A stretch of DNA of 64,000 nt, taken from assembly GCA_030141605.1 (NCBI GenBank), contig JAQGDQ010000410.1, positions 124,001 through 188,000 on the forward strand, written 5' to 3'. The DNA comes from Tubiluchus corallicola. Lineage: Eukaryota; Animalia; Priapulida. The notes below the pieces were generated by a model, which saw only the letters and a program-made list of their open reading frames with translations, was not told where the DNA came from and did no database searches. The position numbers and the translations under genes are program-made. Below are positions 1 to 62,920 of this stretch, in pieces (the first letter of the stretch is position 1; the number at the start of each line of letters is the position of its first letter).

Positions 1-578
1 ATAGTTGGGCTAGTCCAGTTTATGCTAGCCCTGGGTATAAAATGATCTAGGCTAGAATATACCCCCTAGCCCAGAATATACCCCTCTTTTCCAAATCAAA
101 TAACTTATTATTATTTACTTATTTTTTATTATTATCTTACTTTTATTATTTTTATCATTTTTACTAGTAAAGTGGTATTGCCCATGATCCCACATAGTGT
201 ATCAAATGTAATTCCAGGAGTGCAAGCACAAAATAATTTAACATCTATATCAATGAAAGACTGTTTTATTCAGCACCAAACAACTAAAAGCTTATCTACG
301 TGAATATTAATATAAGTGTACATTCGATGACAGTTACAAAAAATTATTTTCCATGCTACCATTATAATTATAGAATAATTGAGTTTAGCTCTCTGTATCT
401 GAAGTAGGTATTACAAGTATTACATACAGTCATGGTAACTGTCTATATTAACAGTATTTGCAACTCCAAAGCAAAAAAATGTTTTTATAGGGTATATACC
501 CCGGGGATTTATTCTGGGCTAGGCTAAACTATACCCGGGTATATTCTGGAGGGGGCGTAATCTGGGCTGTTACACCGG
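1..578. mobile_element. MITE-like non-autonomous DNA element, left end cut by window start
   Basis: GC-rich subterminal repeats (ctagccc/gggctag, atatacccc/gggtatat) occur at 1-85 and in mirrored orientation at 490-578 around an AT-rich core; the block ends abruptly at ...ctgttacaccgg. Family not assignable. Confidence 0.5.
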
Positions 579-1205
579 CATTTAATGTTTTAACATTAAT
601 TAGAAACTACTAAAGCTACAAAGTTGTCAAAAGTAAATGTACTGTAATAATTACACCATAAAATTTCAACTTTGCAGACTACTTGTTTCTAATATTATTG
701 TAATCTATCAATCGGCACATTTTCCCTGCGCCACTAGATATAATGTTTATAATTTTGGTAAATCTCGGGAGGCTGACCAGATAACTTAGGGCCTTTCACC
801 ACTCCTATATTATAAATTCATAATAAGTTTATACTATTACAACCAGAGCTTTAATTTTTTATTTGCCCTGTTGTACTAACCTTATATCATAATGGTGAAA
901 ATTCTAATTCTAATTTTGAATGGACGTCTTTATCACGATTCTTAGAAAACACAACAATTAAGGAAGACCATGCCTGCTCAGGCAACGTACATTAAAATGC
1001 TTAAAACCTTTACATACCTGTATTAATGTTAATCTGTGTGCAAAAAAACAAATGGAGCTAAAAATTACACAGTTGTCAATAAAGTCCAAATTGTAGTAAC
1101 GATATGATAATAAGACAGAAAAGTAAAAATGAAAACAGTACTGAAAACCGAATTTATTATAGTTGTAACACAGATACGTACCTAATGGTTTGCAACCGAA
1201 TCGTT

Positions 1206-1937
1206 TTAGCATGTGTATTCGAGAGTTAGATAAAAGTTCAAACTGGGGTATCCCTCGGAACAGCATGGATAGTGAAGAACATTTCGTTCTCCAGTAGTTT
1301 GCACAACATGCCAGCAGTGATGCGGCGTGTATTCAGAGATGTCAAATCCTTCTGTACCTTCGTAAAGATGCAGATCCATCAAAGTCTCATCGTAGGTCCA
1401 CGAACCTACTCTTACAGAAAACGTTGTGGTTTCTTCAAGGGAAAAGTGGGAAGCGTATACTCTGAACTGAACTGGTGGGACCCAAAGAGCTCTCCCGTCC
1501 GAATAGACAATGACTTCTGTATGCTGGTGGTGGGGAAAGTAATCAACGTCCAACCCATTAAACAAGCTCATGTCTGGAGTCCATATTTGCTTTTCGCAAA
1601 ATTTAATTCTCTCAATTCCATCATAATGCTCCGGATCCCATCTCAGTCTATGGTCATGCCATTGTAAGGTTGCCCAGCCAAGCAATGTCAACTCTTGACT
1701 GCCCGGATTTACGTTGATGTGCTTCAGCGCAACCCTGAAGTCGACATTTACTGGCGCCTTGTCCTCTCTAATTGGAATAGCACGCTTTTCGTAGTGATGT
1801 TCCAGATCTTGAAAAAGTTGGTAATATTGGTGTTCTTCGACATGATCTAATTCATCGTCGTGATCATGCCTAGCTATGTAAGCTGACGCAGCAGCTACTA
1901 AGCCAGCAAACAGCAAAACAACCAGTATTTTACTCAT
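1206..1937 (-). CDS. Secreted AChBP-like protein A (nAChR-alpha-type ligand-binding domain, no transmembrane domain), 243 aa, intronless
   Basis: True ATG at 1937 (MSKILVVLLFAGLVAAASA signal peptide); the ORF track start at 1970 is a GTG. Motifs: LGW (loop D), WHDHRLRWDP, IWTPDMSLFN (loop A), LWVPP, GSWTY (loop B), HYPCCSEGY (loop C). Stop where TM1 would begin; AATAAA at 1158-1153. Confidence 0.93.
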   Translation of the reverse strand: MSKILVVLLFAGLVAAASAYIARHDHDDELDHVEEHQYYQLFQDLEHHYEKRAIPIREDKAPVNVDFRVALKHINVNPGSQELTLLGWATLQWHDHRLRWDPEHYDGIERIKFCEKQIWTPDMSLFNGLDVDYFPHHQHTEVIVYSDGRALWVPPVQFRVYASHFSLEETTTFSVRVGSWTYDETLMDLHLYEGTEGFDISEYTPHHCWHVVQTTGERNVLHYPCCSEGYPSLNFYLTLEYTC

Positions 1938-2009
1938 CTTAGTTGCTCCTGTTAGCCAAAGCAGAAACACTCCTTAACAAGTTTGTAGTCTGCTGGGGAG
2001 CTTCCTGGT

Positions 2010-2233
2010 TATTGGGTTAGATTCTCCACGAGTTCCGCTTTTGCTGGCTTTCTCAGGCACGGTAGTTTGGCTTCAGAAGTGCCCACGTGATCTCAGAACT
2101 TTCAGCTTGTTCGTTCCTGGTCCTCCTTATTGGGTTAGATTCTCCACGAGTTCCGCTTTTGCTGGCTTTCCCAGGCACGGTTGTTTGGCTTCAGAAGTGC
2201 CCACGTGATCTCAGAAACTTTCAGCGTGTTCGT
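2010..2233. repeat. Near-perfect tandem duplication of ~110-117 bp just upstream of AChBP-like gene A
   Basis: ttattgggttagattctccacgagttccgcttttgctggctttc...gtgcccacgtgatctcagaa..ctttcagc occurs at ~2010-2115 and ~2127-2233. Each copy contains CACGTG. All three minus-strand frames have stops. Confidence 0.9.
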
Positions 2234-2548
2234 GGTCCTCATTCTATTTGTAATTTTGTTCTTGGCTTCTTTTTCAAATGCACACGTTTTTGCCACCAAC
2301 TATTTTGATAATAATTATTTTCAACACCGTGTGTTTTTAAAAATATTTTTCTAAAGCTTATCTTTTATTTACAACAAATGAACGTGTCTAACCTATTTGT
2401 ATTATGTTTCACTGAAATTTTTTAGCGTACGTTTGTAAATTTGTGTACAGTTTAGGTTAAGTAGCTAGTTGAGTTTATTTAAAGCCACCTTTGTAATTTA
2501 GTTCTGTTGTTTGTACTTAACTGTATTATACCTACCTGCAGTGGTTCT

Positions 2549-3283
2549 TTATTCACATCCCGGTTTAAGTTGTAGAGATAGGTTGAAATTTGCAGAAGCA
2601 TATGGCTCAAGACAACATGGATAGTAATCCACTTTTACTGCAGAGTTATTTTCCACGAGCTCCCAGCAGTGATGTGGCACGTAATCAGAAAGTTCGATTC
2701 CCTCTCTCCCACCGTAGAGCTGTAGATCCATTTTTCCAGCATCGTATGTCCAAGAACCAAAGTGGACAGTGAAAGTGAAGGGCCCTTCCAAAGAAAAAAG
2801 TGGAGCATACACTCGTAACTGAGCCGGTGGTATCCAAATAGCATTTCCGTCGGAGAAGATGATGATATTCACAGAGTGGTGAGGAAAACGGTCAAGATTC
2901 AAACCGTTATACAAACTCATATCTGGAGACCATATCTGACTTTCACTAAACTGAACGTTAGTAATTCCATTGTACTTGTCAGGGTCCCATTTCAGTCGAT
3001 GATCACGCCATTTTAGGTTTGCCCAGCCCAACAGAGCTAGCTCCTGGGCAACCCGATCTACTTTGATGTGCCTGAGTGTAAAACCAAACTCGACTTTTAC
3101 TGGTGATCCATCGTCTCCAACTGGAATGGCACGCTTTTCGTAGTGATGTTCGAGATCCTTATACAACTTAAAGATACCGTCGTGCTCCTCCTCATGCTTA
3201 GTATCATCTCGATATGTTTTTATTACTGCAGAAACAAGAGGTACCACTGTAATAAGCGTTAAAACAATTAGTATCTTCTTCAT
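2549..3283 (-). CDS. Secreted AChBP-like protein B (paralogue of A), 244 aa, intronless
   Basis: Signal peptide MKKILIVLTLITVVPLVSA; motifs LGW, WRDHRLKWDP, IWSPDMSLYN, IWIPP, GSWTY, YYPCCLEPY; no TM segment; AATAAA at 2479-2474; collinear with paralogue A. Confidence 0.93.
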   Translation of the reverse strand: MKKILIVLTLITVVPLVSAVIKTYRDDTKHEEEHDGIFKLYKDLEHHYEKRAIPVGDDGSPVKVEFGFTLRHIKVDRVAQELALLGWANLKWRDHRLKWDPDKYNGITNVQFSESQIWSPDMSLYNGLNLDRFPHHSVNIIIFSDGNAIWIPPAQLRVYAPLFSLEGPFTFTVHFGSWTYDAGKMDLQLYGGREGIELSDYVPHHCWELVENNSAVKVDYYPCCLEPYASANFNLSLQLKPGCE

Positions 3284-3810: not shown

Positions 3811-6800
3811 CTACCTGCAAGCTGAGTAAACGGCGTCGCAGAACTCCTCACACACTTTCAGATACTGGAATATGTAGAACTGATTTTGATTTGGTGCGCA
3901 TATGTAGCACATAAGAAAATTCAAGTGCCGAGTGCAGTCTGCGGTGGCACCTTTCAGTGGTTGCATTGTTTCAAATAATATCTGTAAGCAAAAATAACAC
4001 AAATCAATAAAATTATAAGAACTGCTTCAAGGCACTAAATGATGACACAAACTCAACATTAATTAAATTTTGATACCTAGCTTGAATGTGAAAAGATTGG
4101 ATAAAGCCTGGATTTGAACCACGGACCTTCTGCTTTCAAGGTATAAGATTTGAGGCTACAGCTCCGACGACGACACCGTTTGCGGCGATCTATACATCAA
4201 ACGAAAGGTCTCGATCTAGTGTCGTGCCATTGGGGGTTTATTTTTCGAATCGGGCCCACCGGGACGAACGGGGGGCGAAAAAGTTCTAGTAGCGCCTGGT
4301 GGGACTCTCGGAAGGAGATATATAGCTCTTTAGAAAGAGGTAGAACAGGGCTACAAGATGATGTGGGCTATATTTTAGGACACGTCCACCAAGAGGAGTG
4401 CCGGCGAGTTAGTTAGATATTCTATTTTCGGCAATTTTTGCTTGAAAAACTGCTGACGCAAAGCCATTGTTCTGACGTCATCCATCATACTCTGTCTATA
4501 ATCTTATAACTTTAATTCAGTAAAAGCTGCTACTGGCTTTGCATTGTAAATGAGGACTATGTAGGATGTTCGCGTATTATTGATTATAAGTGGATTTATA
4601 AGCAAATTTTTTTGCGGGGCCTTTGCTAGTATAGAGTTAAAGGCGATAAATTCAAATTCAAAAGTCTTTGACCATTTTTCACATTAGTATGTAATTTGTG
4701 GCCGAGGAACTCGACCCAAATTGCTACTCATATTCTTCTGGATGTTGTTTATGTTGTCGTCATTGTTACTGCTGTCACTGTTGTTGTTGTTATTGGGGAT
4801 GAACTTTTGAAAAAAGCCCAATACCTTATACTTTGCGAATTTGCAATAGGTGGTCATAAAATTTCATACGAATATACTAGGAAGCATTCTGCTTTGATTG
4901 AGTCTAACGGGGTCGTATTTTCGATCCGCCATTTCGAATGGCGGCAATGACATTTTTGAAAAATCCTCAAGACTCTGCGAATTTGCCATAGGTCATCATG
5001 AAACTTCACAGGAATATACTAGGACAAATTCTGTATCGATAGACTGAGTAAGCTTTTCGACAAGCTATCTTCGATTGTGGGTATTGACGTCGTTTTCTAA
5101 TCCACCGTCTGAAGTTGAGTGAATCCCTCAACCAATAGTTCGAATTCAATTTGTTCTTTGACTATCGGTGGATTCACTGATTAAGTTGGAATCAGTTAAA
5201 AATGTAATAACTATAAAATTTAATTGAAAATCGTCTTAATAAATGAAAATCGATAATATGCCATATTTTATTGTGGACTTTGACGTCATCCACTGACTTG
5301 TGTTTAGTGAGACCCTTACCAACCGTTCAAGTTTAACTCGTTTCTTTAATTGTTTGGATTTACTCGCTTAGTAATATATATTCTTTATATATATATATAT
5401 ATATATAATCTCACATAATGATTGCTTTGCATGTAATACATAATAGGGTAAGTAGTGCTATTTACATTGGTATATACATTATGTTGCACTCAAAACCGTT
5501 ACAAGCTTTAAACCTATGCATTTATATTTATATCTAAGCGTTTCATATGCACTACCGTCAGAAAGTGCTGCATAGCAGTCTCTTCCTATAGTGAATCATA
5601 TTTTGAGTAAACTGATGAACTGCCATTTAGCTTAAACGATTATTTTGTGTTTTTATAAAGCTTGAGTTGTCAGAAGGAAACTTCAGTCCGACTATTCTCA
5701 TAAACATCAATATGCCCATAAGCCACTACAAACGTTTCAGCAATAATATTCGCCATCACCAGTGTAACCTAAAATGTGGAAAATAATTTGCCATAATTAG
5801 CGTACCCTATGGACTTTTTGGAAATGACATTTTGGTAAGCTAATTGTGGCTAATTTTACACATATTTGATTACACTGACGATATCAAATGTTATTGCCAA
5901 AACGTATTGTTGAGCATTATAATAGTTGTTCGTTGTTTATGGACCAAGAAATTTGTTTGGATTCAAGTAACAATGATATTTGTGATTGTTTTTGATGTTT
6001 ATGAGCTTGTTTATAAGGAAATGATAAGTGCTCCATAAACAAAAGTCAAGCAGTAAGCAGAGCTCAAATAACTTTAAGCGCATTTAGCAAAACGTTTCAG
6101 ATTTATGTGCAAAAGTCATCGTCATCATTAGTAATGAAACGTGTAAAAAAGAAAGGATCTATTTGGAATACGTTGTGTTGAAAAACGTTTCACACCAAAA
6201 GCACCTGTTTCACAATAGAGCCACAATATTAAATTGTTTCTCAACACCAGATGCAAAAGATAGGTCCAAAAGAACATGCTGCATAGGGTTTGATCCAACG
6301 AAAAAAGTCTGATTTACCAATGTTACACTAAGCAAGCTGTAAATAACGAAAAGTTCCCGCAACGTATTCTAACTACTGCTGTAACTTCAAGAACAAATAA
6401 GAATTTCAGAGCCTTTATGACTGCAGTTAATCGGTGCAAAATTCGACCTAGTGAAGTTTCGTAGCGATCCACTGGGAACTAGTGGAGCATTAGGCGTTTT
6501 TGCCAAAAGTCATCCCCAACAACAACAACAACAACAACAACAACATCCAGATGAGTAAAACAGGCCCAGATCCTCAACCAAAAACCTTGACTACACACAC
6601 TGCCGGAGAGTTTCACAACAGCGTTGGCAATGTAGCACTTTAGCAGAGTTAAGCCTGGAGCGATATCTAGCTACGTTATTAATAATTAAACCAGAAGAAA
6701 TGATGCACACATGGTCATCATGCTCAAACATTAACTGAGTGGGTGCATTTCTAGCAGCTCACCACCTCTCAGTATGGCAGTATGGCTTCATAATAGGATC

Positions 6801-9063
6801 ATTTCCTCTGAAAATGACGACTCCCATAGGAATGCTATTGTACAATTGCTGCAAGCGAGTGCCTGTAACACCTACTGGAATTCTGGCTTCATGACTTAAT
6901 TGGCAAAACCATTCAATCAGGAGCATACTAGGAGTATACTCGAATATTGATGTCACCTAACCTATACTAATCAGCTAAGCTAGCTGCTTAGTCTAATTGC
7001 CCAGCACACTGCTATACAGTTAGTGATTCGTCATACAGGGTAAATGTAATTGTGAGATAATTAATCAGACGAAACGTGATTAGCTTTTTAGCTTCTGTAC
7101 TACTGTAGTTGAAGAAACAGTGTTTTGGAACATTGGTTCAATCTAATAGATAAATTTCTGATTAAACGTATTTACTAAAACTGAAGGGTGGATAGCTTTC
7201 TGACAGATCGACTAGTCAGTAGATCAGTTGCGTGGGTACTGATCTGCTGATAAGGTTTTATTGGTTTGGTAGTTGTGCGGATGACTAGTAGAACAAATCT
7301 GTTAATTAGCTTGCATGTACTTTTGCTTTTAGCTGGTTTATCAGCAAGTTGATTAGTAGGTTGGTTGTCTCTTTGGTAGATTTGGTTGATCAGTCATATT
7401 TTACTAGGTGCTCCCCGGCGGTCATGTTGCTCGCGTGGAGGGGGGCTGCTTTACTTGGCTACCTGATTCTTAGGTTGGTCTGGTTAGTCGGATCAGATGG
7501 TTTTTCGGTGGATTGGGGAGACCATTTGATTGGTTAGTCGGCCACTTTCACTAGGTATGTTGAAAACATAGTTTCTCGAAGTGAATTCAAACGTTTCTTT
7601 TCGTTTGCAAAAAGAGACATGTATGCATCTAATTAAGAATTGGAGGTTGTAGAGATTCAAAGCCGTAAGACAATCCTGTTCAGTGACTTGGGGTAATGAA
7701 CCTCCCTTTATACCTAGTTACTTTCTTTCTTCGTAATTGACAACCTGTCTTTACTCCTAGTTACTTTCTTTCTTCATAATTAGCAACCTGTCTTTACACT
7801 TAGTTACTTTCTTTCATCATAATTAACAACCTGCCTTTAATACTTAGTTACTTTCTTTCATCGTGATTAACAGCCTGCCTTTACACTTAGTTACTTTCTT
7901 TCATCCTAATTAACAACCTGTCTTTACTACTAGTTACTTTCTTTCTTCGTCTTAACAACCCGCCTTTACACCTGTTACTTTCTTTCTTCGTAATTAACTT
8001 ACCTTTGCTACTAGTTACTTTCTTTCTTCGTAATTAACAACCGTAAAATGATATGTGAATAGTCTAAATCCTCTTTGACTAGCTTAATAGTTAAAATTAA
8101 AATGGTGTAAAGTGCCTAGTTTCCTACCTGTGTGCACATTAACAGCGTTAGACTGAAACTATGTTAAAATGATGTAAAGTGCTATATTGAAGTTAAAATG
8201 TTAAGTTTTTATATAGTTTACTATGTTATTAAAGATAACGTGTGTGTAACGTCTTTACTAAAACTGTATATGTTACATTATCATTATCGTCGTCTCTAGT
8301 GCAATAGACATATCATGATTGCCTTTTAATTTTGTTTTTAGTTTTATTTTACAGAGTGAAACAGAGACGTAGTTAACACACACACGCGCGCGCGCGCACA
8401 TACACAAACATACATAAGCGCACGCTCTAAATAGTTTTCCAGCTTTTAACGTTAACGTTGAACGAGTAAATTAAAAAAATAAAAATTTCTGCATATTAAA
8501 ACAGTAAGGAGCAGGATTTCCGATAAGGTACTCCCCCGGTTGGTTTATTTTTCGGTGGGGGAAAGGGGCTTGGTTACCGCTTGGTTGCTTAGGTTGTTGA
8601 TTGAATGTTGGGCAACTAATTGTCTAGATGAAAACATTTGACTGCTGTTTGACAAGTTTCTGACTGAGGGTATCTAGCACATATAATACTGATGCCCACA
8701 ATCAGAAACTTATCAAACAGCAGTCAAAGGTTTTCATATATTATATCATATTATATCATATATCATACATAATGGTGTTATGATAGACCATAGCAGCAAA
8801 AGCACTACGAAAGTACTGTTCGCTGTTAAAGTTACATCACTATTAATTTTCTTTACCCTGATCTCGTTTGGCAAACAGCAACTTTTCTTTTTGTACCAGG
8901 TGCAATTCTGTAGGTCCTCTTGAGGTTCTGGGGCTCTGTTTCCAAAGTACGAGCAGAATTCATTCGGCTCGGCATGCGGCTGGGCTGCCTTAACCTCCGC
9001 CATACTAGCGTCGACTGATCGTAATTCAAAGTTCAAGAACAGAATGAAAATTGCAGGGAACAT
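3811..9063 (-). CDS. Secreted cysteine-rich protein of the folate receptor / riboflavin-binding / HHIP-N / NPC1-N fold family (at least 2 coding exons)
   Basis: Exon 1 9063-8857 (signal-peptide-like start, CSYF..NCTWY..SCC, donor AGG|GTAAAG, phase 0) joins in frame to exon 2 starting 3981 (ttacag|ATA): DCTRHLNFLMCYICAP..VCEEFCDAVYSACR. The Cys spacing C..C..CC..C..CxxC..CxxxC..C matches this family. It ends either at TAG 3813-3811 or at the donor AG|GTAGAG at 3815. Confidence 0.8.
4030..4165 (-). mobile_element. tRNA-derived SINE-like element
   Basis: Minus strand has a B-box GGTTCAAATCC (aagcagaaggtccgtggttcaaatccagg) followed by ...tatcaaaatttaattaatg...tttgtgtcatcatt, which is shared with the copies at 29035-29290. 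Confidence 0.6.
4693..5035 (+). mobile_element. Helentron-associated (HINE/DINE-1-like) non-autonomous element, copy A
   Basis: Head, then a degenerate (GTT)n, then ggggatgaacttttg, then two ~150-bp imperfect tandem units (tgcgaatttgc.ataggt..cat.aaa.ttca...gaatatactagga) with a ccgccatt/aatggcgg palindrome. The head is homologous to 6420-6585 in reverse orientation. Family assignment is inference from architecture. Confidence 0.5.
6420..6585 (-). mobile_element. Second copy of the 4693 element head with pure (CAA)n
   Basis: Reverse complement reads ...ttactcatctggat(gtt)n ggggatgacttttggcaaaaacgccta, matching copy A. Confidence 0.55.
7701..8043. repeat. Minisatellite, ~42-43 bp unit x ~8 (intron 1 of the Cys-rich gene)
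   Basis: Unit approximately cctgtctttacacttagttactttctttcatcataattaacaa, head-to-tail with no spacers. Confidence 0.92.
8628..8737 (-). other. ~110-nt imperfect hairpin (tiny MITE or pre-miRNA candidate)
   Basis: atgaaaacatttgactgctgtttgacaagtttctgactgagggtatctag ... ctgatgcccacaatcagaaacttatcaaacagcagtcaaaggttttcat: ~49-bp arms with a short loop. Confidence 0.75.
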
Positions 9064-10594
9064 GATGGTTAAAACGAATGTAACTGCATGGTTATGTCAA
9101 CTGATTATACAACTGTCATAGTTGGCAATGTTGGGTAATCCATATTCCGTTCTATATGCGTTTTCAAGCGACAAAGGTGGCGCCAAATATATTTTGTCCA
9201 CTTGCACGACTACACACAATCTCTTTCTACTCAGTTGTTTACATATTTTTTAAATTTTTTCACATTTGTATCACATATGCAGTTTATATTGGAATAAATA
9301 ATTTTCCACAATTTGAACGAGTTAAGGCAGAACTAAGACTCGTGGAAAAATTACACATGTATTGCATTTCAATGTTAAAGGTTACAGCAGCACTGTAATT
9401 TCAACTAAGCAAAACACGTAAAATTGTGAATATCGTTTCTCACACTTTGCTAAATTGCTTGGTCTCTAAACTTATAAAATGCACAGCCCGGGTGGACTTC
9501 ATGGTTGCATATCAAATTACAGGTGTGAATTCAAGCAAATAATATCCCTTGAGCTGCACGCGAGCAGAAAATTACACTCCGGCTTCCTCCCAGCTGAAAT
9601 ATACTGATAACTACTCGTGAGTCGACAATGGCCAATGGCTTCAGCATAGCGTGTTACAGTGTTATAATGCTCAGTTGCAATGTTACTCAGCCTACAGACT
9701 GCATACAATAGTCACATTTACCTAGATAAAAGAATAAAAAGAGAAATCGTATAAACACACGAAAGCAATACTAAATTAGAGTCTGAAAATGTTTTCCCTC
9801 CACTGGGACTGGCGCCCAAACATTCAGCTTTTCAGGCAGCTATGCTAACCGAAAAACATATTAAACTCTCACAACAGTACTAATGATAATAAAGATTACA
9901 TTTGTAAAATGTTACTACCAGCAGCACAGGAATGCAGGGATAGTGACGACGACGACCTGGGCATCAGCGACTGTAACATGAAAAGTATGTTCAGCGTGAA
10001 TGCCTGTTATCCCGATTATATAGGAAATTCTAGTAGATGTCATTGCTGTAATGTTGGGTTTTGGAGGCGCCACAATTATAATATGCATGTCACGCATTTC
10101 CACATTATCATGCAGTAAATCGATATTAATGTAATAAACGAAATGTCATCTTGTTACGGCAGTCATACTAGCTACGCATACAGTAAAAATTAATTGTTGA
10201 GAATATTGCACCCTAGCTAACACGATGTAGAATTGGCGTATTAAAGTGCTTGAATATTTTACAAACAAAAATGTCATAAATCTTCGAAAATGTATCAAAA
10301 TTTTTTGTTATTTTTGAACAGATTACAAGTAAGTTACAGGTATAAAAGGACTATTGTAAAACCATTATTGTTTGACGCTAGTTAAAGAATTTAATATTAC
10401 AAAACCTATGCAGCACTATAACATACTGAGTTCAAAATTTCAAAACTGTTATTCAGTAACCATTGCATAAATAGTTGACTTTTTGAACATCGTGTATATA
10501 GTCAGAATTTATTTATGACATCCATATTATTGAGTCACTCAACTATACGCGCAGTAAAAAATAACTGTTACATCTTGGGCAGTATGCTAGAGAA

Positions 10595-25475: not shown

Positions 25476-27217
25476 TTCAAACCACTTTTAAACTAGGACA
25501 AGTAATCGACTTTTATTCTAAATCATATTAAAGTTTGTATCCACCAAAGAAGCCAAATCATAAAAGCTGTTCACCATTCGCTGGCAAATATTTTGCTGAT
25601 TTATTTCTGGAAATATGTAAGCAAGAATTAGGTGTGTAACTAAATTAGATGCACTGTTGCGTCAACACGTGACCTCAAGGGAAATAACGGCACTACATTT
25701 ATTTGAGAGTATTTCACTGTTAGATAACAAGGCGTTATCACGAACACCAGCACTACCGGCTTTAATTTTCCGCTTTCCAGAAAAGACTTTCAAAATCTCA
25801 ATGCACAGCTTTGTCATCTGATTCGAAACCGCTTACTTAATTTTCGGTATCAAGTTTTTGGGTAGCTCAGTATTGATTTATAAACTTTCGTTAGGACGGA
25901 GGACGACAAATCCAACACCAACACATTACTGAAATCGCAGGAGATTTAGGGGATATATGTATTTGGAAGCGCATTTAGCACGTGCGATAAAAACTACGAC
26001 ATTTAATATGTCGACATTTGAAAGGTTAGACGGCAGTTTATCAATGTCCCATCAATACAGATTAAGCGTGCTCTATTGTTGGTGCGCAAGCAAGACGCCA
26101 TCCCAAGAAGCCTAGTGCTATTAAATTGATTTTAACCTTTTGTGCACACAGCGCTCGCTTTACTGTATCTGAAAGTATGCTCATGCAGAATGTCATAACT
26201 AAAAACAAGTTTTTAATAGACAGTAAATTTTTGCATGACCTTGCGCACTTTTCAACTTTTGAAGTCTTGCTGAATTTCTGAAGCCCGCTGCGTTCGTGGT
26301 CTGGTTCTGTTTAGCTTCTATTTACAGTACTGACATAGTACTGACGTGTTTGTGAGACCAAGAGAATGCTTTAAGAAAGCAATCTGGAAACAGATCCATC
26401 TTTAGTATGCAGAAACTCAAAAAACTTGCTTAAGACCTGAAGAATTATAAGAAAATCATCATTTATTAGTGGATATTGCATATACTCTCCTCTTTCAACT
26501 AGATGATGAGAGTTCAGATGATAAGAGATGATGGTGTACTTCCCCTGTAATATTAATCAGGTGTACACATTTCTCAGTAATATGTGTTCTTGTCTTGTAA
26601 AACAACATAATTTAGTCGTTTTCATTTAATCAATCACTGATGAGTAATAATCAGCATAAAGCAGCGGTTTTATCTTGTCCGACACACCAGTATGGGTTAT
26701 GAAAACCTGCAAAGTGTAGCATGCTCCTGTTAATAAATTCATAACAATAACCATTATAAGTAAGTTTAATTACAAAGTTCTCTGATGTGTGCATAAAATG
26801 TGCTCCATTGGTGTAATCTATAACAAATCAGATTAAGTGCTTTATAAAACTAAAATAATTTGAAACAGGGTATCGCACGTAAACATATTGCCAACTACAC
26901 GTCAAAGTTGAAACTGTGGCGTTTGTGGTAATTGATTGTACTTGCTGTTTTCAACAGATGAGATAAGATCCATTAATTAAATAGCAAGGTTATGAACATA
27001 AGTGAATGTGAACTTTTAAAAAGTTACAAATCAAATTCTCATTTATTTTATTGCAAAAATTATTCCTAGCACATGTAATTGGCATCTTCCGTACTTCTGA
27101 AGCATTCTAAACACCAACAGTCTGTGCTTGCCAAAATATTTAATTATTGTCGGCAAAAGTGATTTTACAAAAGTATTTCTTTACAGATCAGTAAACTGAC
27201 AGCTAGCTAACAAAGCC

Positions 27218-28300
27218 ATGAACGTGGAGATTCAAGTTGCCCTCAACTTTATCATCTCCTACCTCTTTAACAAGTTGCCAAGACGACGCATAAATATTTT
27301 TGCTGAAGAGCTAGAAAGAGGACTAAAGCGAAAATTCCAAGGGCACTGGTATCCCCAGTGCCCAGCTAAGGGTAGCGGGTACAGATGTGTCCGTATTGGG
27401 AAGGAACTTGATCCAGTTATGCGACAGGCAGCTTATGAAAGCGGACTTTCGGAAAACGAAATCAAGGAAAATTTGCCCAAAGAACTGGCAGTATGGATCG
27501 ATCCTGGTGAGGTGTCTTATCTTATTGGTGACAAAGGTCCAGCCAAAATCATGTACTCTGAAAACAATTGCACGGATAATAGACGAGGACCTGGTGACTG
27601 TGATAAGGATGTCAGCCTGCCAATGTGCAAGGTAAAGGCATTCAACCCAGAGGCTCAGACTTTCAAACCAATCAGTGATACTGGTGCCATGTGTAATGGC
27701 TCCACTTCTCCACAGCACGTCTACAATCCAGGAGTGGCAGCCAGTGTTGCCACACCTACCACTAACAATGTTTTCATTCCACGAGCAGGTCACGGTAGTA
27801 CTCCACAATTCACTGCTGCCAGCTTTGCACAGACGAAATTCGGGTCTACCAAGATGAAGAACGCCACACCCCGTAAGAACCTGCAGCGATCATCGCCAAC
27901 CGACTTCAACCAAGTGAAACAGCGCAACATGATTCAGGCATTCTACAACAACCAAGGATACACACTGCAGAGCCCGCGATCTATTTCTCCAAGTTTCCAT
28001 CCAGACATCAGTCCGTTTTCAATTCCGCAGTCTCTAACGCCACCAAGAGCAAACACAGTTAGTATGACATCTCCAATAGGCCTGGATACCCAGTTTGGCG
28101 AGCTGTACACCAATCATGCACAACAGCAGCTAATCAATGCCAACTTGAACCAGATGAAACCAGATCTCTTTTATGGTTCTATCATCAACAACAACATGCC
28201 ACAAGATAACAGAAAGGCTTTAATTGATGGTATCACAGGGCATCCTTCTCCTCCTTCATGTACAGGCAACCAAAATCGTCTTTTGGTCCACGCCAACTAA
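27218..28300 (+). CDS. TOB: Tob (BTG/Tob antiproliferative family; CAF1/PABP-binding deadenylation adaptor), 360 aa, single coding exon
   Basis: N-terminal BTG domain (EIQVALNFIISYLFNKLPRRR..HWYP..P.KGSGYRC..LPKELAVWIDPGEVSY) plus both Tob PAM2 motifs (FNPEAQTFKP; FTAASFAQTKFGSTK). Kozak-like gccATG; acceptor tttctttacag ends at 27186. Confidence 0.97.
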   Translation: MNVEIQVALNFIISYLFNKLPRRRINIFAEELERGLKRKFQGHWYPQCPAKGSGYRCVRIGKELDPVMRQAAYESGLSENEIKENLPKELAVWIDPGEVSYLIGDKGPAKIMYSENNCTDNRRGPGDCDKDVSLPMCKVKAFNPEAQTFKPISDTGAMCNGSTSPQHVYNPGVAASVATPTTNNVFIPRAGHGSTPQFTAASFAQTKFGSTKMKNATPRKNLQRSSPTDFNQVKQRNMIQAFYNNQGYTLQSPRSISPSFHPDISPFSIPQSLTPPRANTVSMTSPIGLDTQFGELYTNHAQQQLINANLNQMKPDLFYGSIINNNMPQDNRKALIDGITGHPSPPSCTGNQNRLLVHAN

Positions 28301-50965: not shown

Positions 50966-51385
50966 TAACTCAAGATTAAACTTAAACTTAAGATTTCTTA
51001 AACCCGTAAAAGCATAAAATTAGGCATATTTTCAAATTTCGCACATCACGTAAAAATGCCCACATCGTTTTGAAATAATCCTAAATATTAATTCTAAATT
51101 ATTTTAAAAAATAATCCTATTTACTTTTTCTTTACTCTTAACGCCTTTAGAAATAGAAGCAAGCTTAAAAATAGACTACCCTGAAATTCTTCTTGGTTTG
51201 TACTTTGTCAGTGCTACCAAGGTTCAACAGCTTTGTGCTAATGACCTAGAAAACCTGCCAGACATTAAATTCAAACGCTCTGTTCATACTACAGGCCTAT
51301 AAGTCTTGACAGATTTACAGAACTATGCAGCGACTGTAGTTCGTGGCACACTGTTAACAGTGTTTGTTAAAAAATACAATGAAAT

Positions 51386-52474
51386 ATGGCGGAACACTCG
51401 ACAGATGAAGATTACGAATTACTAGATGTGAATATAGACAGTGATGAGTACAAGAATGGAGCTGTTCTTGTAGTTGAAGCAGTAAAACCAAGATGGGATA
51501 AGCGTAAACTGAATTTTCACGTTTTTACAGATGGAATAACAAACAAAATTGTGGGTGTGTACACTGACGACTTCAACGACATGATATTGCTTAGGATTTT
51601 TGGCGAGAAAACTGAAGAATTTATAGACAGAGAGGCAGAACTACGAATTATGTTGTTACTGCATAGGAATGCACTATCTCCTCCAGTTTATGCAAAATTT
51701 AACAACGGCGTGTGCTGTGGCTTCGCGCCAGGGCGATGCGTTACAAAGAACTCTGTCCGATTAGAACCAGTGAACAAGTTAATAGCAGCCACATTGGCAC
51801 GACTGCACTGTATTGAAGAAGGAGAAAACATAAAGAAGGAACCAATAGTCTATCAACGCTGCAAGGCATGGCTAGAGTTAGTGCCAGACCATTTTTCGGA
51901 TCCCGGTAATAATGATAAATACTACAGATGTATACCTAGAAAAGACGTTCTTGCACATGAGCTGGCCGAACTTGAAGCAAAACTAACAAAACTTGAATCG
52001 CCGATTGTTTTTTGTCACAACGACCTCCTGCTCAATAATATTGTTTATGACAAAGACAGAGGCACTGTGACATTCATAGACTACGAGTATGCGGGTTATA
52101 ACAACCAGGCTTTTGATATAGCCATTCACTTTCTAGAATATGCTGGGGTTGAAGAAATGGATTTTTCTCTTTATCCGGACAAATGTTATCAAATGGAATG
52201 GCTTAAAGAATACTTAATCCACTGGCAGCAATTACAGAAAGCTAGTGACCAAGTCTCACCATCAGTCATAACGCAGCAAGATGTTGAAAAATTGTACCGT
52301 CAAGCAAATAAGTTTGTACCGTTAGCTCTCTTCTTCACAGGACTTTGGGGATTACTGCAAGTAGAGAAGTCTCTCATAGATTTCGATTTTTTACAATATT
52401 CAATTGAAAGATTTCGCGAATACTTCACGAAGAAGAATCAGTTTCTTTACCATTCCGGCCCGACAGTAAAATAA
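51386..52474 (+). CDS. ETNK: Ethanolamine kinase (choline/ethanolamine kinase family), 362 aa, intronless CDS
   Basis: FTDGITNK, LLRIFGEKTE..IDR..E, Brenner motif FCHNDLLLNNI, choline-kinase motif FIDYEYA..N..AFDIA.HF.EYAG, and C-terminal IDFDFLQY. Confidence 0.95.
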   Translation: MAEHSTDEDYELLDVNIDSDEYKNGAVLVVEAVKPRWDKRKLNFHVFTDGITNKIVGVYTDDFNDMILLRIFGEKTEEFIDREAELRIMLLLHRNALSPPVYAKFNNGVCCGFAPGRCVTKNSVRLEPVNKLIAATLARLHCIEEGENIKKEPIVYQRCKAWLELVPDHFSDPGNNDKYYRCIPRKDVLAHELAELEAKLTKLESPIVFCHNDLLLNNIVYDKDRGTVTFIDYEYAGYNNQAFDIAIHFLEYAGVEEMDFSLYPDKCYQMEWLKEYLIHWQQLQKASDQVSPSVITQQDVEKLYRQANKFVPLALFFTGLWGLLQVEKSLIDFDFLQYSIERFREYFTKKNQFLYHSGPTVK

Positions 52475-53257: not shown

Positions 53258-56200
53258 CTAAGAATTTAATACTGTATTCTTTTGTCCTGGTGGTTCTTTT
53301 TCCAGCGATAACTTATAATTTTCTTGCTCATCCTTATAAGGTGCTCGGAGAAGATAGCTTCGTATAACAGAACAAGTCCTGAAGTCGTACTGAGCTGCTG
53401 AAATTTGGAACCGCTGCAGCTGCTGAACAACAGTTCTATATGACTGGCTAGATGTGAACCTAGGAGCACTTCCACCACGTCCTAGTGTTGACAGTGACTG
53501 ATCATTGTTCTGACAGCGACTGATCATTGACGGCTGTTCAGTTAAAAAACTACACCGACTGTACTTCAAACCCGCACCTCCAAACGGAGCAAATGCTGAG
53601 ATGGATCGACTGTGTTCATCACACTGACCATCTTCTTGATTGAGACAGGTATCAGTGGGACTGAACTCTGATGTAGTCGCTAATTGGAGTGAATTATATG
53701 TATCTTCGATCTTTCTTAGCTCTGTTTTCTCCGAAACATTTTTGTCAGCCGAGCTCTTGCTGTTGTCGCCATCAGCATTTAACTCCCGTGCGTTTTCTTC
53801 TGCCACAACCATTTGGCCGCTTGTATCACCAGCACCAAATATTTCTTCGCCTGAATTTGCTTCCTTCTGCACAGGTTCCACGCTCATATTATCTCCCGCC
53901 ACATGCATTTGCGCAGTATGAGATTGAAAATAGGAAATGATACTTCCCATAAAGGTTAGTCCTTTAGGTTTTACGATGCTGCCAATGAATGTGCGTCGTC
54001 TGGGTCTTGCATTTTGATAGAAGCTATTCTCAGTTTCTTGCATGTCTTGTTGCACAGCAGCCATTACATTTTCAACCTCCCTTAGTGAAGCCGTCATGGA
54101 CACAGTGGCTACATCATCAGCGAATCGTCCTATCGCAGGGGACAAGTTCAGCAGAGCTAGATGGCATTCCATACAATAAGCTTCAGTCAAGCTCTGCAGC
54201 AGATAGCCCAGAAATGGCAAACACGGCGGATTTTCTACGGCTTCCTTCAGTTCAACTCCGTATTTGGTTAGTCCATTGCTAGTCATAAGTTCAGAAAGAT
54301 TGCAAAACACTCTGCAATTTGTTTTAATAAAGAATTAATAAAGATCACTGAGAATTTCGTACAAAATGACATAAATTTTTAACCAATTTGCTCTTCTGTT
54401 AAAAATTACATACAGACATCCCTTTACTTATTAAGTGAGATAATACCTTTTTTTATAAAGTTCATGTATTATTCAGGATCTAACCAGTTTACACGATGCT
54501 AGCTGATGCACAATTTAACCGGGGAAATGGCAAAAATATCATTTCTTAGAAGCTTCTTAAGAAAACTTTTTCTTAAATCAAAACACTACAGAAATTAGTT
54601 TGGAACCCAGTGATAAGACGTTTAATCTGTTAAACCTTTTGAACTTTTACTATGAAACACGAGAAATTGTATTATGTAAAACTGTATCAACAAACGACAT
54701 CAACGTAAATGTGGTATATTGCACGAACCTGTATCTAGATTGGTGAAATCTACGAACTTTTGACCAAGTAACACCCAACCTCATGACCGGATAAGCTCTG
54801 ATTCCTATTAGAATTGAGCACATAGAGTGGTAGTTTTGAAGCTCATAGCATCGTTCAGCAATCTGTAAAAATTAAATCAAACGCAGCTAAGGGACAAGAT
54901 TGGAACACTTTGTAAGTATAGCTGAAATAATAACAAATTTCATTAGAACTTTGTGACTTGTTAAATGCTATTCGAAACGTACTGAGTATGTGAAAAAAAT
55001 TCGATTACTCTGCTATCAGAATCTGAATGAAATAGCAGCAAAAGATGAACAAAAAAGGCAAAACAAAAGAACAAACAAAATAAACGAAGAATAGAGGAAG
55101 GAATACGGGAAAATCGCACTAATAAACGAAAGAATAGAATAAGTAAATCAGCCTGTCTGCCAGTCCGCCCATCTCTTTACCCATAAAACCGTAAGTCGTA
55201 ATTCCATATGAATGTAAGCCATTTATTATCATTGTAATATAGTATAAAGGAAAATTACAAGCACAATTATGTTTGCAGATTTTTTAATATATGAGTTTAG
55301 TAGAAAAACTATGAATTTAATAGAAAATTTAGTAAACAAATTTAGTAAGCATATGACAATTATACACATAAATTAATACATGTATGTAATGCATACATAA
55401 AGCAATAAACACAATTCAATGGCATGCAGAATTTAGTTAGTGAACAAGATAACTGCGTTACTCAGCGGCTTATAATTAATGCAGTCTTCTATTTAAGACA
55501 GGAGGACTACAATGAGCAATGCGTTGAATCTTACCTCGTCGACCAAGCAAGTCCTTTATAAGTCTAACTTAACGCCTTAGACCTAAGGGCACTCGAAGTA
55601 TGTCAACGTGATACCCTGGTCAATTTACAGATAGTTGCGTTGTATAGGCTAAAGCCATATGTAAGATGACCTAGACTAAATACTGCCAAAGTGAATGACT
55701 ATTTATTTACACTCACCGAAATGTAGCGAGATATAATCCTTGCTCGTTTCATGTCCGAGTCACTTTGTACTATTTCTGTGGTCACGAGGTGCGAAATCCG
55801 TTTGAAAAATTCCAATGTAGCGCTCAAATTAGGAATAAAAACTGCCTGCATGTGAAAATAGGCTACATAAGTATGTATTTGGTTTAATTGTTAACAATGT
55901 GGATTTTTTACGTTTTTTAAAATTTTTATTAACTTAGTTTCAAACCTGAAGTTTGCACTGTTCGCCGCTTTATTTTTTCTAGGTAATTTATTTTCCCTCC
56001 ATGTCCAAATGAGTTATGGTAGCTGTGTTTTCTATCAGCATAAGTTTGACTGCAATTTTGGACGTTGTCATTTAGTGTGAAAATATCAGTCTGACACCTT
56101 TCAGGCAATGATTTACGTAAATTAAAGTCACTGCTACTTTGAATCCCATTGGACTTAACATTTGTAGAATAAAACCTTCAAATTCACAGAATATGCATCA

Positions 56201-57912
56201 GGAAAGGAAATTAAAAATCCTGACTATACATTCAGTTCAAAATCGTGAGATATAAAACTGAAGAATACGAAGCGCTTCCCATAAGAACTTGTTGTTATTC
56301 TTGCAAAGCTAAATCCAAAATTGAATGGAATAAACTTAAAGCTGAAAGCATTATCTTTGACATTGTTTGTCCATACATATTTAAGATAGATATTCTGAAG
56401 GCAGAGAACGACGATTTTTTGGCAATAGTTTTCATCCTACTATATTCCCTATAATTTCATTATATTTCTTGAAGACTTCTAATATGATGTTACTTACCCG
56501 ATTTGATAACAACCATTTTGGTCCATCAAATTCAGATGCTTGTATCTGAGTGAACAATTGTTTGTCAATTAGCGTAAGCTCATGCGCAATCTTATCTACG
56601 TCAGCGTCCATTATACATTTCATAATTCCACATGTTCCCCAATGATTTTCCTTGGCAAGCACCAAGGTTTGATTCGATGCTTTGGTTCCTCTTCTTAATC
56701 GGTAGGAACATTTATTGAACTTGGAAGCAAACTGGTGAAAAAATTTCTCTATGTCCTCTTCTAGATCCTCTCCTTTTTCAACTGCGCTGCTAATTGAACG
56801 TTGAAGCTCTGCTCCGACAGATTGTGGTAGTCTCGGAAAACTTAGGCAGGAGCAGACAGCAGAAGGATGCTCCCTGTTAGTCGTGTAGCCAACTGAATCG
56901 TTCACAATAGCAGTTTCTTTGTGGCATTCTTTTTCCAAAGTGTTCTGCTGCATTTCAATTAAATGTGGACTATCACGCGTCGAACTTCCAACCGTCTCAA
57001 CAGCAATACTTTCCCCTAAACTACTGTCCGAAGTGATGTGTGTAGCATGAGTACCGTACTTGATATCCATCAACTGCTTATTCACTAACTTGGAAAATCT
57101 TTCTTCTTTTGGCGTGCTATCCACTTGGTTTCTGTTGCGAATTTCACATTTGTTCTTTGATGATCTTTTTCTATTTGCTGACGCGCTGAGCATCCATGAT
57201 AGTTTTGATGCACTTGCCTGTGCTGATCTTCTACCAGACCTTAATCTTATTCTGTGCTGTTGTTTTTTTGCTGAAAAACAAAAACTAACTATTACAGCCT
57301 AGCATACACGGAAAGTAAAAACACAAAAAATGAAAATAAATTTATTTCAACTTGTTTTCCACTTGTCTGGCTTTTTTGTCGACTAAACGCATATAGGAAA
57401 TTCTGACTGCTCACGTAATTCGTGTTTTCCACCCCTTCCTGTTTATATGTGCGTTAGGCTTTATTTGAAGGTTGAAAACTGTGTTGCTGTTTAGCAATTT
57501 GGTCACTTATCATTTTTATGACAGGGAAGGAGTTCTATGCTGCAATCATGATGAGCATTTAGTTTAAGGGACTATAATATTATTTCATTGGGTAATAGGC
57601 ACCTACCTTTCCTACCCGCAGGGGAACTTGAAATAACAGCTTCAGGGTGTCGGTACGTTTTAAAAGCAGCGTCAATATCACTGTCATCATCATCTGTTGA
57701 AGGTATTTTCAAAACTCGAGTTTTCTCACTTTGTTCAATCGCAGTGTTCAGTCGCTTAACAAGCGAGTACCCTCTGAAATGTTAATCGTGTTGATAATAT
57801 TGCACAGTTGCGTACATTAATTTTTAAGCAGCAAATTTAATTTTTCCTTGCTGATTTTGCAGGTTTAGTTTGATTTGATGCGCGTTACACACATTTAACA
57901 CACACACACACA

Positions 57913-57971
<59 letters not shown>

Positions 57972-59733
57972 TTTTGTCAAAATATCAATCGACTATTACT
58001 CCTGTAATAATATCATTACATCTCACCAATTATAATTTTTAAGTGCGTTCAGAAATCGCGATCAATGGTAATAGACGTATGTAAAATACGTTTCTGGGTA
58101 ACAAATGATCTGACAAAATTTTTATTGAAGATCTGTACGACGTGAAATTTGTGCAGCAAAACACAAGCAAGAAACAGCGTTGAAATGATTAATAAGCGAT
58201 ACAAACAGTTCTAGCACGTAAGGGCAACCAGTGAGAAATGGAGTTGAATAGTCTTATCTATATCATCGACGGTCCTGGGTAATATCAATTCTTGTTAATT
58301 TCGGCTGATGAGTACTTTGCACTCATTTGCGTGAATCATATAATATAACTGGATGGTGCTTTAGATTATTACTTATATTGTACATTTTCTTGTTAACTTT
58401 ATTTTTTCAAAAAAGTAAGTACGCTTATAATAAAATAAAAAATAGCCAATGGCGGCACAAATGCATACCTTATTTTTTTCTGTTCTTTTGTTGCTTTTTT
58501 AACCGTATTTGTCGTGCGTTCCTTTGCAAATCTCTTGAGTGTGCTAAAATCCAAGTCTGATTTGACATTAGCGTGCTTTTTTATGTTAAAATTCGGCTTA
58601 AACTTCGCTTCGGTTGAAAGAAGATCAGGTAAGGATTCGAACCGCGTCACCTCTTGCCGGTTAAAGGCGAACATATACATATTGGATTTGTTTACGTAGT
58701 AATGTTGATCATCTGCTACTGTTTCTAATGCCGTTTCACTGCAACAACGGCGTATCCAAATTTGGCCATGCTGACTATAGGTCAGATTCGTAAAAAGAAA
58801 CGTTTCTGATGGACATAGAGCTACCGGAAACTCCGCCAAATTGATTTCTGTTTCCTCTTTATTGTTCGAAATCAAAGATTTGTCAAAAATGCATACAAAA
58901 TCGTTATCTTTCCCTTGTCGGTATACCAAATCAGGACTTTCGGATAATTCGTCTGTTTCAGAATCTTGACTGTCGCCATTATTGTCATCATCGTTACAGA
59001 ATGTTTCTAAAGTTTGCAAAATTACAGCTTTTTTATCTTCTTTTGTCAATGGCGGATCAGCGAAAATAAATTTATCAATCACGTCTGCTAAGTTCTCCAA
59101 CAGCTTAGTATTTTGCTTTCTTCTCCGCTGCACCCGTTTTTGATACGAATCCAGTTTGCTTTTACAAGAAGACCTTTTCTTTTTATGCTTTTTCCTTCGC
59201 TCCTGTGTATTCTTGATATTGGTCATGGACCGACTGAGCCTCTCAAAGCTTTTCTCAAATTTAGTAGACTTATTTTCCACTTCAAAATCGCTCTCACAAA
59301 ATGTAGAAGAACTGTGGCCATCAATTCCGTTCATAGTCTCTAATCTCCAGATCCATTCCTTCCAAGTAGCCCAAGGGTTCTCCATTGTATCTAGTTTGTA
59401 AAACCTCACACTTCCATTTGCTAGTCGGACTCGCATAGTCATGTTTTGTTCATCTTTCACCGAAAACCTTGCAGTACAAATGGGTGTTGTCTGGTACACG
59501 TGTTCAAGTTCTACGTCCCGGTAGTTAAATTCTGTCAGGGGGTTGTTCCTTTCAACTTTCGCAAAACTTGCCACAATAAACTTGTCTGGGCACAGACCTA
59601 AATAAACGTTTCTTTTGGGCCGGCCGTTTTTCTTCACTTCTACAAACGGTGCTTCGACCAGCACGATGTCCATGAATTCGTTGTAATCGCTGGACCAGAG
59701 CAGCTTTTGCAGCGGTTTTGCACTGGACATCAT
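53258..59733 (-). CDS. Atypical CDC25/RasGEF-domain protein with an N-terminal PH-like region, ~1173 aa, 6 exons
   Basis: Exons 59733-58469, 57773-57607, 57270-56498, 55845-55717, 54862-54729 and 54311-53258; all GT-AG with consistent phases (3522 nt). CDC25 motifs: IAHELTLIDKQLFTQIQASEF, RISHLVTTEIV..RARIISRYISIAERCYELQNYHSM, RL..TW, PPCLPFLG, ENYKLSLEKEP. Confidence 0.85.
57898..57968. repeat. (CA)n microsatellite in RasGEF intron 1
   Basis: Directly visible. Confidence 0.95.
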
Positions 59734-62468: not shown

Positions 62469-62920
62469 CTACAGATAAAGAATTTGGTATTAGTTAATTA
62501 TGTATTTAGTTAAATATAATATTTAATTTAGCTAATTAAAGTTAGCTAAAGCATTAAAAGCTCTTAATGACTCAGTGACTTTTTGATAGCGAATTGTGCA
62601 CAGCCTGTAAGAGGAAAACCGGACGATTGTGCAGACATTAGTCAAAATAAAGTAATATAAAGCCTTATATATTAAAAACTACAACAGCTTTTTAAATCAA
62701 ACCTTAAATAATAATTACTTCGGATAGTTAAATTTGTTAAACTTTCAAATGTACGCGCAGCTCAACAAATCCACTAAGACTGGCAATGGCGCCTTTTTGT
62801 CGCATTCGCATGGCCGGCAAATAGGCTAGGGTACCACGATAAGCATGATCATGAACTGCAGTGTTCATCTGTGACGTCGGTGTGACATACAGATCATCTT
62901 CGTGACATCACATCAGCGTC

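What the first reader, a model, noticed from the sequence alone, without database searches (positions are those of the whole stretch)
1206..3283. AChBP-like pair lacking the Cys-loop disulfide, with a shared substitute cysteine pair
Seen: at the Cys-loop position the proteins read PPVQFRVYA-SHFSLEETTT-FSVRVGSWTY and PPAQLRVYA-PLFSLEGPFT-FTVHFGSWTY, so both canonical cysteines are replaced by Ala and Phe in both paralogues. Both also carry a Cys in PHHCW (start of beta9) and a Cys at the C-terminus (LEYTC*, LKPGCE*). Established: characterised molluscan AChBPs and nAChR subunits keep the Cys-loop disulfide, and the beta9 start and beta10 end lie next to each other on the membrane-facing side. 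Inference: a relocated disulfide staples the base of the domain, defining a distinct Cys-loop-less AChBP lineage. The agonist cage is retained (loop D W, loop B W, loop C Y-x-CC-x3-Y; loop A is Y in B but F in A), so the paralogues may differ in ligand affinity.
Basis: partly seen in the sequence, partly recalled or inferred. Interest (0 to 1): 0.85.

Follow-up and report, generated by a model that had tools for sequence, protein, structure and literature searches.

The report
Acetylcholine-binding proteins lacking their signature disulfide
Two tandem genes of an unidentified animal encode likely secreted acetylcholine-binding proteins that have lost the family's signature Cys-loop cysteines and carry a new cysteine pair predicted to staple the base of the domain; the loss recurs in other such proteins, but the new pair was seen nowhere else.

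Summary
Observation confirmed. Two minus-strand, single-frame ORFs (A 1206-1937, B 2549-3283; 54% identical) encode a signal peptide plus a nicotinic ligand-binding domain, then stop. Both Cys-loop cysteines are gone (Ala, Phe), and both carry Cys before beta9 and at the C-terminus. Models are confident (pLDDT 94) and put the two new cysteines at adjacent ends of the beta9-beta10 hairpin, so an intrachain disulfide is likely (about 70%); no distance could be measured.

The 'substitute' reading is weaker. Cys-loop loss is recurrent: 8 of 182 homologous domains lack both cysteines, including a Capitella teleta protein, and one clade for them is rejected (p 7e-6). The nearest relative (P0010) lacks the Cys-loop and also lacks the new pair, so the loss is tolerated without it and probably came first. 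The new pair sits where receptors have the gating salt bridge (alpha7 E172 with the pre-M1 Arg), not where the Cys-loop bridge was. The beta9 cysteine occurs in 0 of 182 homologues. No transmembrane exon was found, but only 1.2 kb downstream is visible. Verdict: a new variant of AChBP, of moderate interest.

The parts
1206..1937 (-). Gene A: single-frame CDS, signal peptide + nicotinic ligand-binding domain, 243 aa (frame is open from a GTG at 1970)
2549..3283 (-). Gene B: tandem paralogue, 244 aa, 54% identical to A
1881..1937 (-). A: predicted signal peptide (hydrophobic N-terminus; no other hydrophobic stretch of membrane length)
3227..3283 (-). B: predicted signal peptide
1419..1454 (-). 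A: former Cys-loop, Ala162...Phe173, 10-residue loop without FPxD
2771..2806 (-). B: former Cys-loop, Ala160...Phe171
1314..1316 (-). A Cys208 (PHHCW), at the alpha7 E172 column; unchanged in the X6 relative
1209..1211 (-). A Cys243, last residue; aligns structurally to Torpedo alpha 211 / alpha7 207
2666..2668 (-). B Cys206 (PHHCW), at the alpha7 E172 column
2555..2557 (-). B Cys243, penultimate residue; the last residue aligns to Torpedo alpha 214
1260..1265 (-). A loop C vicinal Cys225-Cys226 (canonical)
2612..2617 (-). B loop C vicinal Cys223-Cys224 (canonical)
1596..1598 (-). A Cys114, unpaired, end of beta3 (Ser in B)
1176..1184 (-). Splice-donor-like site 24 nt after A's stop (7 of 9 consensus); a second in-frame stop lies at it
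2530..2538 (-). Splice-donor-like site 13 nt after B's stop (8 of 9 consensus)

Best explanation
A and B are tandem paralogues that encode likely secreted, stand-alone nicotinic ligand-binding domains (AChBP-like) without the Cys-loop cysteines, in which a new cysteine pair is predicted to form an intrachain disulfide tying the C-terminal tail to the start of beta9. Inferred order of events: freed from gating, the lineage first shortened the loop and lost its cysteines (shared with P0010). The A/B ancestor then replaced the acidic residue of the receptor's E172-Arg(pre-M1) salt bridge with Cys, lost the Arg and gained a tail Cys. The bond would pin the free end left by truncation before M1. 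It is not the structural equivalent of the beta6-beta7 bridge (that topology is recalled). The proteins would form pentamers and bind acetylcholine or nicotinic compounds at subunit interfaces, as buffers or scavengers. Shown: sequence, domain content, cysteine pattern, phylogenetic pattern. Predicted: fold and strand register. Inferred and untested: secretion, the disulfide, pentamers, ligand binding.
For: LBD only; hydrophobic N-terminus and no other membrane-length stretch; no TM exon found by 68 TM queries or their HMM in the window; AATAAA downstream of both stops. A possibly-RNA contig of a relative (X6, 87% alike) covers A end to end through the stop position without a joint or a loose end there. 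AF2 pLDDT 93.8 and 94.0; beta9 starts one residue after the PHHCW Cys and beta10 ends 2 (A) or 4 (B) residues before the tail Cys; last-block pLDDT 97 and 94 against 61-62 at the N-termini. Z about 27, rmsd 1.5 to nAChR alpha subunits, with the tails aligned to the pre-M1 segment. The PHHCW Cys aligns to alpha7 E172, which contacts the pre-TM1 Arg (PMC11335262 passage). P0010 keeps Asp/Lys at these two sites, while A has Cys/Tyr and B Cys/Leu. Cys at that column: 2 of 184, only A and B. The tail Cys is kept in both paralogues although the tails otherwise differ. All five cage aromatics are present, as W, F or Y.
Against: No Cys-Cys distance could be read from the models, and no control model without the pair was folded, so high tail pLDDT is only suggestive. 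A and B are one evolutionary event. Tail cysteines also occur in 8 of 68 other soluble-size homologues with no partner at the beta9 column. The two tail cysteines are two positions out of register. The salt bridge is missing in most soluble-size homologues anyway (acid plus base in only 11 of 69), so nothing needs to replace it. The B-like X6 contig stops matching at 2565, with 25 unseen letters where the tail Cys and stop would lie; three X6 differences near the ends of the A stretch were not listed, so tail-Cys conservation is unproven for both genes. The Asp of the K145-Y190-D200 triad (recalled) is Ser in both. A evolves fast: dN/dS about 0.8 against X3 (22 of 30 differences seen) and 0.4 against X6 (25 of 28 seen), so the ligand may not be acetylcholine.
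Confidence: 0.6

Rival explanations
1. The new pair is a compensating substitute: the fold needs one basal disulfide, and this one took over the job of the Cys-loop bridge.
For: Both paralogues have loss and gain together; both sites are on the membrane-facing end of the domain. Cys-loop mutants impair receptors, and Cys-less proteins were argued to need another way to stabilise the fold (PMC4795631 passage).
Against: 0 of 8 other Cys-less homologues have a Cys at the beta9 column, including the sister P0010. The vacated positions are filled by Ala and Phe, a hydrophobic replacement in place. The pair links other strands.
Confidence: 0.15
2. The extra cysteines link chains or pentamers (face-to-face di-pentamers) instead of pairing within a chain; A's lone Cys114 could do the same on the opposite face.
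For: Biomphalaria AChBP2 forms disulfide-bridged subunit dimers through a lone Cys71, and ACCBP is di-pentameric (PMC3423370 passages). Both new cysteines lie on the exposed face that would be against the membrane in a receptor.
Against: Two cysteines at adjacent strand ends of one chain and an ordered tail favour an intrachain bond.
Confidence: 0.12
3. A and B are ligand-binding exons of a membrane receptor, spliced onward to TM exons outside the window.
For: Only 1.2 kb downstream of A is visible and no genome is held. A weak donor (6 of 9, as good as the donor of the neighbouring gene's exon) lies inside B's last Cys codon, near where the X6 contig stops matching. Two Cys-less homologues are longer proteins, one with a visible TM-like region (P0031, P0080).
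Against: A has no donor above 5 of 9 in its last 100 coding nt; the strongest donors lie after the stops; the X6 contig is laid through A's stop position. E44, E172, the pre-M1 Arg and FPxD, the coupling residues, are all lost, whereas 85 of 86 long homologues keep Arg or Lys there.
Confidence: 0.07
4. The new cysteines are free or bind a metal with nearby histidines (HHC plus tail Cys), and the proteins act as metal or mineral binders like ACCBP.
For: A has the highest His share of 184 domains (8.4% against a median of 1.8%). An AChBP variant binds amorphous calcium carbonate (PMC3423370 passage).
Against: HH before the beta9 Trp also occurs in P0010 and in ordinary receptors without the Cys. 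Six of A's histidines differ in X3, so they are labile. Free thiols are unusual in secreted proteins (general knowledge).
Confidence: 0.06

Closest known systems
Molluscan AChBPs (Lymnaea, Aplysia, Biomphalaria) and ACCBP
   Same: Signal peptide plus stand-alone nicotinic LBD, loop C vicinal cysteines, aromatic cage; Aplysia-type entries match at E about 1e-25. The Biomphalaria pair also differs by loop A Y/F and has extra lineage-specific cysteines (PMC3423370).
   Different: They keep the Cys-loop bridge ('strictly conserved', PMC3423370), their extra cysteines are at other sites (C16-C64, C71), and the Biomphalaria genes have introns; the coding regions here have none.
Capitella teleta AChBP (PDB 4AFG/4AFH; P0290) and Capitella ELU06282.1 (P0076)
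   Same: Annelid stand-alone LBDs. Ct-AChBP has a shortened loop (8 residues) and loop A Phe and is solved with lobeline and varenicline. ELU06282.1 lacks both Cys-loop cysteines.
   Different: Ct-AChBP keeps the two cysteines; neither has the beta9/tail pair; neither groups with A/B.
Human alpha7 and other nAChR alpha-subunit extracellular domains
   Same: Best sequence hits (E 2e-30) and same fold (Z 25-27, rmsd about 1.5).
   Different: No TM domain here; Cys-loop, FPxD, E44, E172 and the pre-M1 Arg are all replaced.
'Cys-less' Pro-loop receptors (Jaiteh et al., PMC4795631; schistosome clade, PMC9874803); Cys-loop-less oyster LBDs (PMC6896357)
   Same: Animal pLGIC-family proteins without the two cysteines; secondary loss is described; 8 of 141 oyster LBDs lack the Cys-loop.
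   Different: The receptors are membrane channels that keep the loop proline or FPxD; A and B are likely soluble, nicotinic-type, with loop C cysteines and without FPxD. No replacement pair appears in the passages read.
P0010 (unnamed, 210 aa, Logan contig)
   Same: Nearest relative: 39% identical to B, same 10-residue Cys-less loop, sister to A+B with SH-aLRT 97.
   Different: Asp/Lys in place of the new cysteine pair; cage degenerate (loop D His, first loop C Tyr is His); no signal peptide in the record.

Membership tests
AChBP | Nicotinic-type ligand-binding domain (PF02931) with the beta-sandwich fold | tested here: met
AChBP | Signal peptide and no TM domain in the reading frame | tested here: met
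   Hydropathy and stop codons; a hydropathy scan, not a signal-peptide predictor
AChBP | Transcript not spliced on to TM exons | tested here: inconclusive
   No TM exon in the window; X6 contig laid through A's stop but RNA status is a guess; 1.2 kb downstream only; B unresolved
AChBP | Loop C vicinal cysteines and aromatic cage (loops A, B, C, D) | tested here: met
   loop A is Phe in A
AChBP (as characterised so far) | Cys-loop disulfide | tested here: not met
   Ala and Phe at both positions; hence filed as AChBP-like variant, not as a canonical member
AChBP | Homopentamer | tested here: inconclusive
   One complex prediction returned no verdict
AChBP | Binds acetylcholine or nicotinic ligands | not testable with these tools
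   Needs recombinant protein
nAChR alpha subunit (channel) | Four TM helices after the LBD | tested here: not met
   (within the window)
nAChR alpha subunit (channel) | Coupling residues: FPxD, E44, E172, pre-M1 Arg | tested here: not met
Primary 'Cys-less' Pro-loop receptor clade | Membrane channel with the conserved loop proline / FPxD | tested here: not met
   No TM domain, no FPxD; best hits are nicotinic alpha subunits. Members of that clade were not put in the tree.

The most novel reading that the evidence does not exclude
A fast-evolving, lineage-specific family of secreted nicotinic-ligand sponges in which the Cys-loop bridge was abandoned and the receptor's gating salt bridge was converted into a covalent staple on the truncated C-terminus: a natural, high-affinity AChBP pentamer with no Cys-loop at all, and a ready design for stabilising isolated nAChR extracellular domains.
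Probability: 0.3. Interest if true: 0.6.

Novelty: new variant of a known kind. Interest (0 to 1): 0.38.

Why it matters
Why the Cys-loop cysteines are conserved is described as only partly explained (PMC4795631). A, B and P0010 give a natural series with which to test it in a soluble protein: no bridge and no new pair, against no bridge with the new pair. The survey also shows that AChBP-like proteins lose the bridge repeatedly, which fits a role tied to the membrane coupling interface more than to the fold. If the staple is real, the same two positions might stabilise isolated receptor domains. It is a structural variation on a known protein type, not a new system.

Tried and rejected
Complex prediction of three copies of B gave no verdict (median 0.22, mark 0.32); it is not used either way. 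No whole genome is held, so no paralogue census and no view beyond the window. No RNA holder is on record for this stretch; X6 is only guessed to be RNA. X3 shows no cover over B's coding region, which is no evidence of absence. Metagenome scan: 30 loci from 261 pattern matches; the 3 best that I read are ordinary full-length receptors with a Cys-loop, and the other 27 were not read. Host placement by ethanolamine kinase and Tob failed: Tob is on a long branch outside the sampled arthropods, vertebrates and hemichordates, so the phylum is open. A motif-based cysteine count misclassified rows and was replaced by a column-based one. Three look-ups of earlier findings returned nothing. Paper searches for a described Cys-loop-less AChBP listed none by title or abstract start; the library lacks most subscription papers, and the supplement of PMC6896357 that shows the oyster loops was not read.

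Full report
What is there. The window is animal DNA (36-40% GC; Tob, an ethanolamine kinase, RasGEF, RRM and folate-receptor-family exons). The phylum could not be fixed. Two minus-strand frames, B (2549-3283, 244 aa) and A (1206-1937, 243 aa from the ATG), lie in tandem. Each matches only Pfam Neur_chan_LBD. They are 54% identical, start with a hydrophobic stretch and have no other of membrane length. No third copy is in the window.

Cysteine pattern. A has Cys114, 208, 225, 226, 243; B has Cys206, 223, 224, 243. Against human alpha7, the best PDB hit (E 2e-30 and 1e-29), the Cys-loop cysteines fall on Ala and Phe. The loop is 10 residues and has no FPxD.

How unusual is the loss? I pooled the hits of three searches (7, the best 150 of 4659, and 20) and kept 184 domains that cover at least 150 profile positions, A and B included. 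Of these 173 keep both cysteines, 10 have neither and 1 (a Tubulanus protein) has only the second. The 8 Cys-less homologues are P0010, P0062, P0076, P0113, P0115, P0125 (soluble size) and P0031, P0080 (longer). P0076 is Capitella teleta ELU06282.1. On a 100-row tree (all 71 soluble-size homologue domains, every third mid-length receptor, and the Cys-less rows) the state, with the half-loss counted, needs 8 changes. On a 34-row subset that I chose after seeing that tree, one clade for the 10 is rejected (p-AU 7e-6, LG+G4). Deep branches are poorly supported, so the number of losses is rough. In print: Cys-less and secondarily Cys-less pLGICs in invertebrates (PMC4795631, passages; PMC9874803, first of three parts), and 8 of 141 oyster LBDs without a Cys-loop (PMC6896357, passages). 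AChBP loops are known to vary in length (PMC4569296, passages). I found no paper describing a Cys-loop-less AChBP (listings only).

How unusual is the new pair? Cys at the PHHCW column occurs in 2 of 184 domains, A and B. Eleven soluble-size homologues have a Cys shortly before it in a CP motif while keeping the Cys-loop, so extra cysteines near the start of beta9 have arisen elsewhere too. A tail Cys occurs in 8 of 68 other soluble-size homologues, none with Cys at the beta9 column. The nearest relative, P0010 (39% to B; sister to A+B, SH-aLRT 97), has the same Cys-less loop but Asp at the beta9 column and Lys at the pre-M1 position, and no tail Cys. So the loss is shared by three proteins and the pair by two: the simplest order is loss first, pair later. 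One outgroup cannot exclude loss of the pair in P0010.

Geometry. AF2 models have pLDDT 93.8 (A) and 94.0 (B). In A, beta9 is model residues 190-203 and beta10 210-222, with the cysteines at 189 and 224; in B, 188-201 and 208-220, with cysteines at 187 and 224. The hairpin register brings them to neighbouring positions. The last block of residues scores 97 and 94, against 61 and 62 for the first. Structural alignment places A's last residue on Torpedo alpha 211 (alpha7 207) and B's on 214. The beta9 Cys aligns to alpha7 E172 (counted on the alignment; E172 numbering also in PMC2632993, passages). High-resolution structures show E44 and E172 in contact with the invariant pre-TM1 Arg209 (PMC11335262, passage). 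A has Tyr and B Leu at 209, with Cys two and four residues on; E44 is Pro and Arg. The pair therefore stands where the gating salt bridge stood. I could not read coordinates, so the bond is inferred; I put an intrachain disulfide at about 70%. Against: a single evolutionary event, tails out of register, and acid-plus-base kept in only 11 of 69 soluble-size domains, so the site needs no replacement.

Soluble or spliced onward? Neither 68 TM-region queries nor their HMM found a TM exon in the window, but only 1.2 kb lies downstream of A. AATAAA follows both stops. Donor-like sites lie 24 and 13 nt after the stops (7 and 8 of 9; background 2.1 and 0.3 per kb; noticed after the fact), which suggests 3' UTR introns that would not extend the proteins. 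A weaker donor (6 of 9) lies in B's last Cys codon. Run X6 (guessed RNA, same species label, 87% alike) has a 776-nt contig laid on 1205-1973, that is over all of A and its stop, with no joint in the re-laid part. Cys208 and the loop C pair are unchanged in it; 3 of its 28 differences in 1205-1472 were not listed and lie near the ends, so Cys243 is unproven. A B-like X6 contig matches 2565-2697 and has 25 unseen letters towards the stop, so B's tail is open. All coupling residues are lost, whereas 85 of 86 long homologues keep the pre-M1 Arg or Lys. A channel is unlikely.

Function. The cage is intact in both. Loop A Phe is found in 25 of 184 domains, in Ct-AChBP, which is solved with lobeline and varenicline, and in one of the two Biomphalaria paralogues (PMC3423370, passages); it need not abolish binding. 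The loop C Asp column is Ser in both, as in 38 of 184. A diverges quickly (dN/dS about 0.8 against X3 from 22 of 30 differences, not distinguishable from neutral; 0.4 against X6 from 25 of 28, p 0.05) and is the most His-rich of the 184 domains. The most likely role is a secreted pentameric buffer or scavenger of acetylcholine or nicotinic compounds; this is by analogy only. Tandem intronless nAChR-like genes and LBD-only forms are described in lophotrochozoans (PMC6896357).

Verdict. A real feature and a new variant of a known kind. The Cys-loop loss is recurrent among AChBP-like proteins; the beta9-to-tail pair is new in my sample and probably a disulfide, but it is better read as a staple at the old gating salt bridge than as a relocated Cys-loop. 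Interest 0.38.

Noticed in passing
window 8749-9096(-) and 3814-4002(-): Two exons of a folate-receptor-family gene (PF03024 positions 2-39 and 57-108 of 172). No further exon was found between 3811 and the window start, so A and B may sit inside an intron of this same-strand gene.
   Followed up: partly
window 1176-1184 and 2530-2538 (-): Splice-donor-like sites just after both stop codons; possibly a shared 3' UTR intron or a relic of the exon boundary before the TM region.
   Followed up: partly
window 2003-2233: 118-bp tandem duplication (96% alike) just upstream of A, each copy with a CACGTG box.
   Followed up: no
window 1596-1598(-): Unpaired Cys114 in A only; a lone Cys gives disulfide-linked dimers in Biomphalaria AChBP2 (PMC3423370).
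   Followed up: no
window 1209-1937(-): A is His-rich (8.4%, highest of 184 domains), and 6 of the 16 seen amino-acid differences to run X3 are at histidines.
   Followed up: partly
P0003-P0007, P0049, P0112, P0117, P0121, P0138, P0150: A group of soluble AChBP-like proteins with a CP motif before beta9; P0003-P0007 also have a Cys in the beta1-beta2 region, which may form a different third disulfide at the domain base while the Cys-loop is kept.
   Followed up: no
window 4141-4630: Very high-copy repeat (summed contig depth above a million in X1) in the intron of the folate-receptor-family gene.
   Followed up: no
window 51383-52471(+); 27200-28297(+); 53261-62497(-): Single-frame ethanolamine kinase and Tob genes, and large exons of one or two divergent RasGEF-like genes; two of the long frames end in similar sequences.
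   Followed up: no
window 47-84 and 504-537: Short direct and inverted repeats bounding a roughly 500-bp multi-copy element, possibly a MITE.
   Followed up: no
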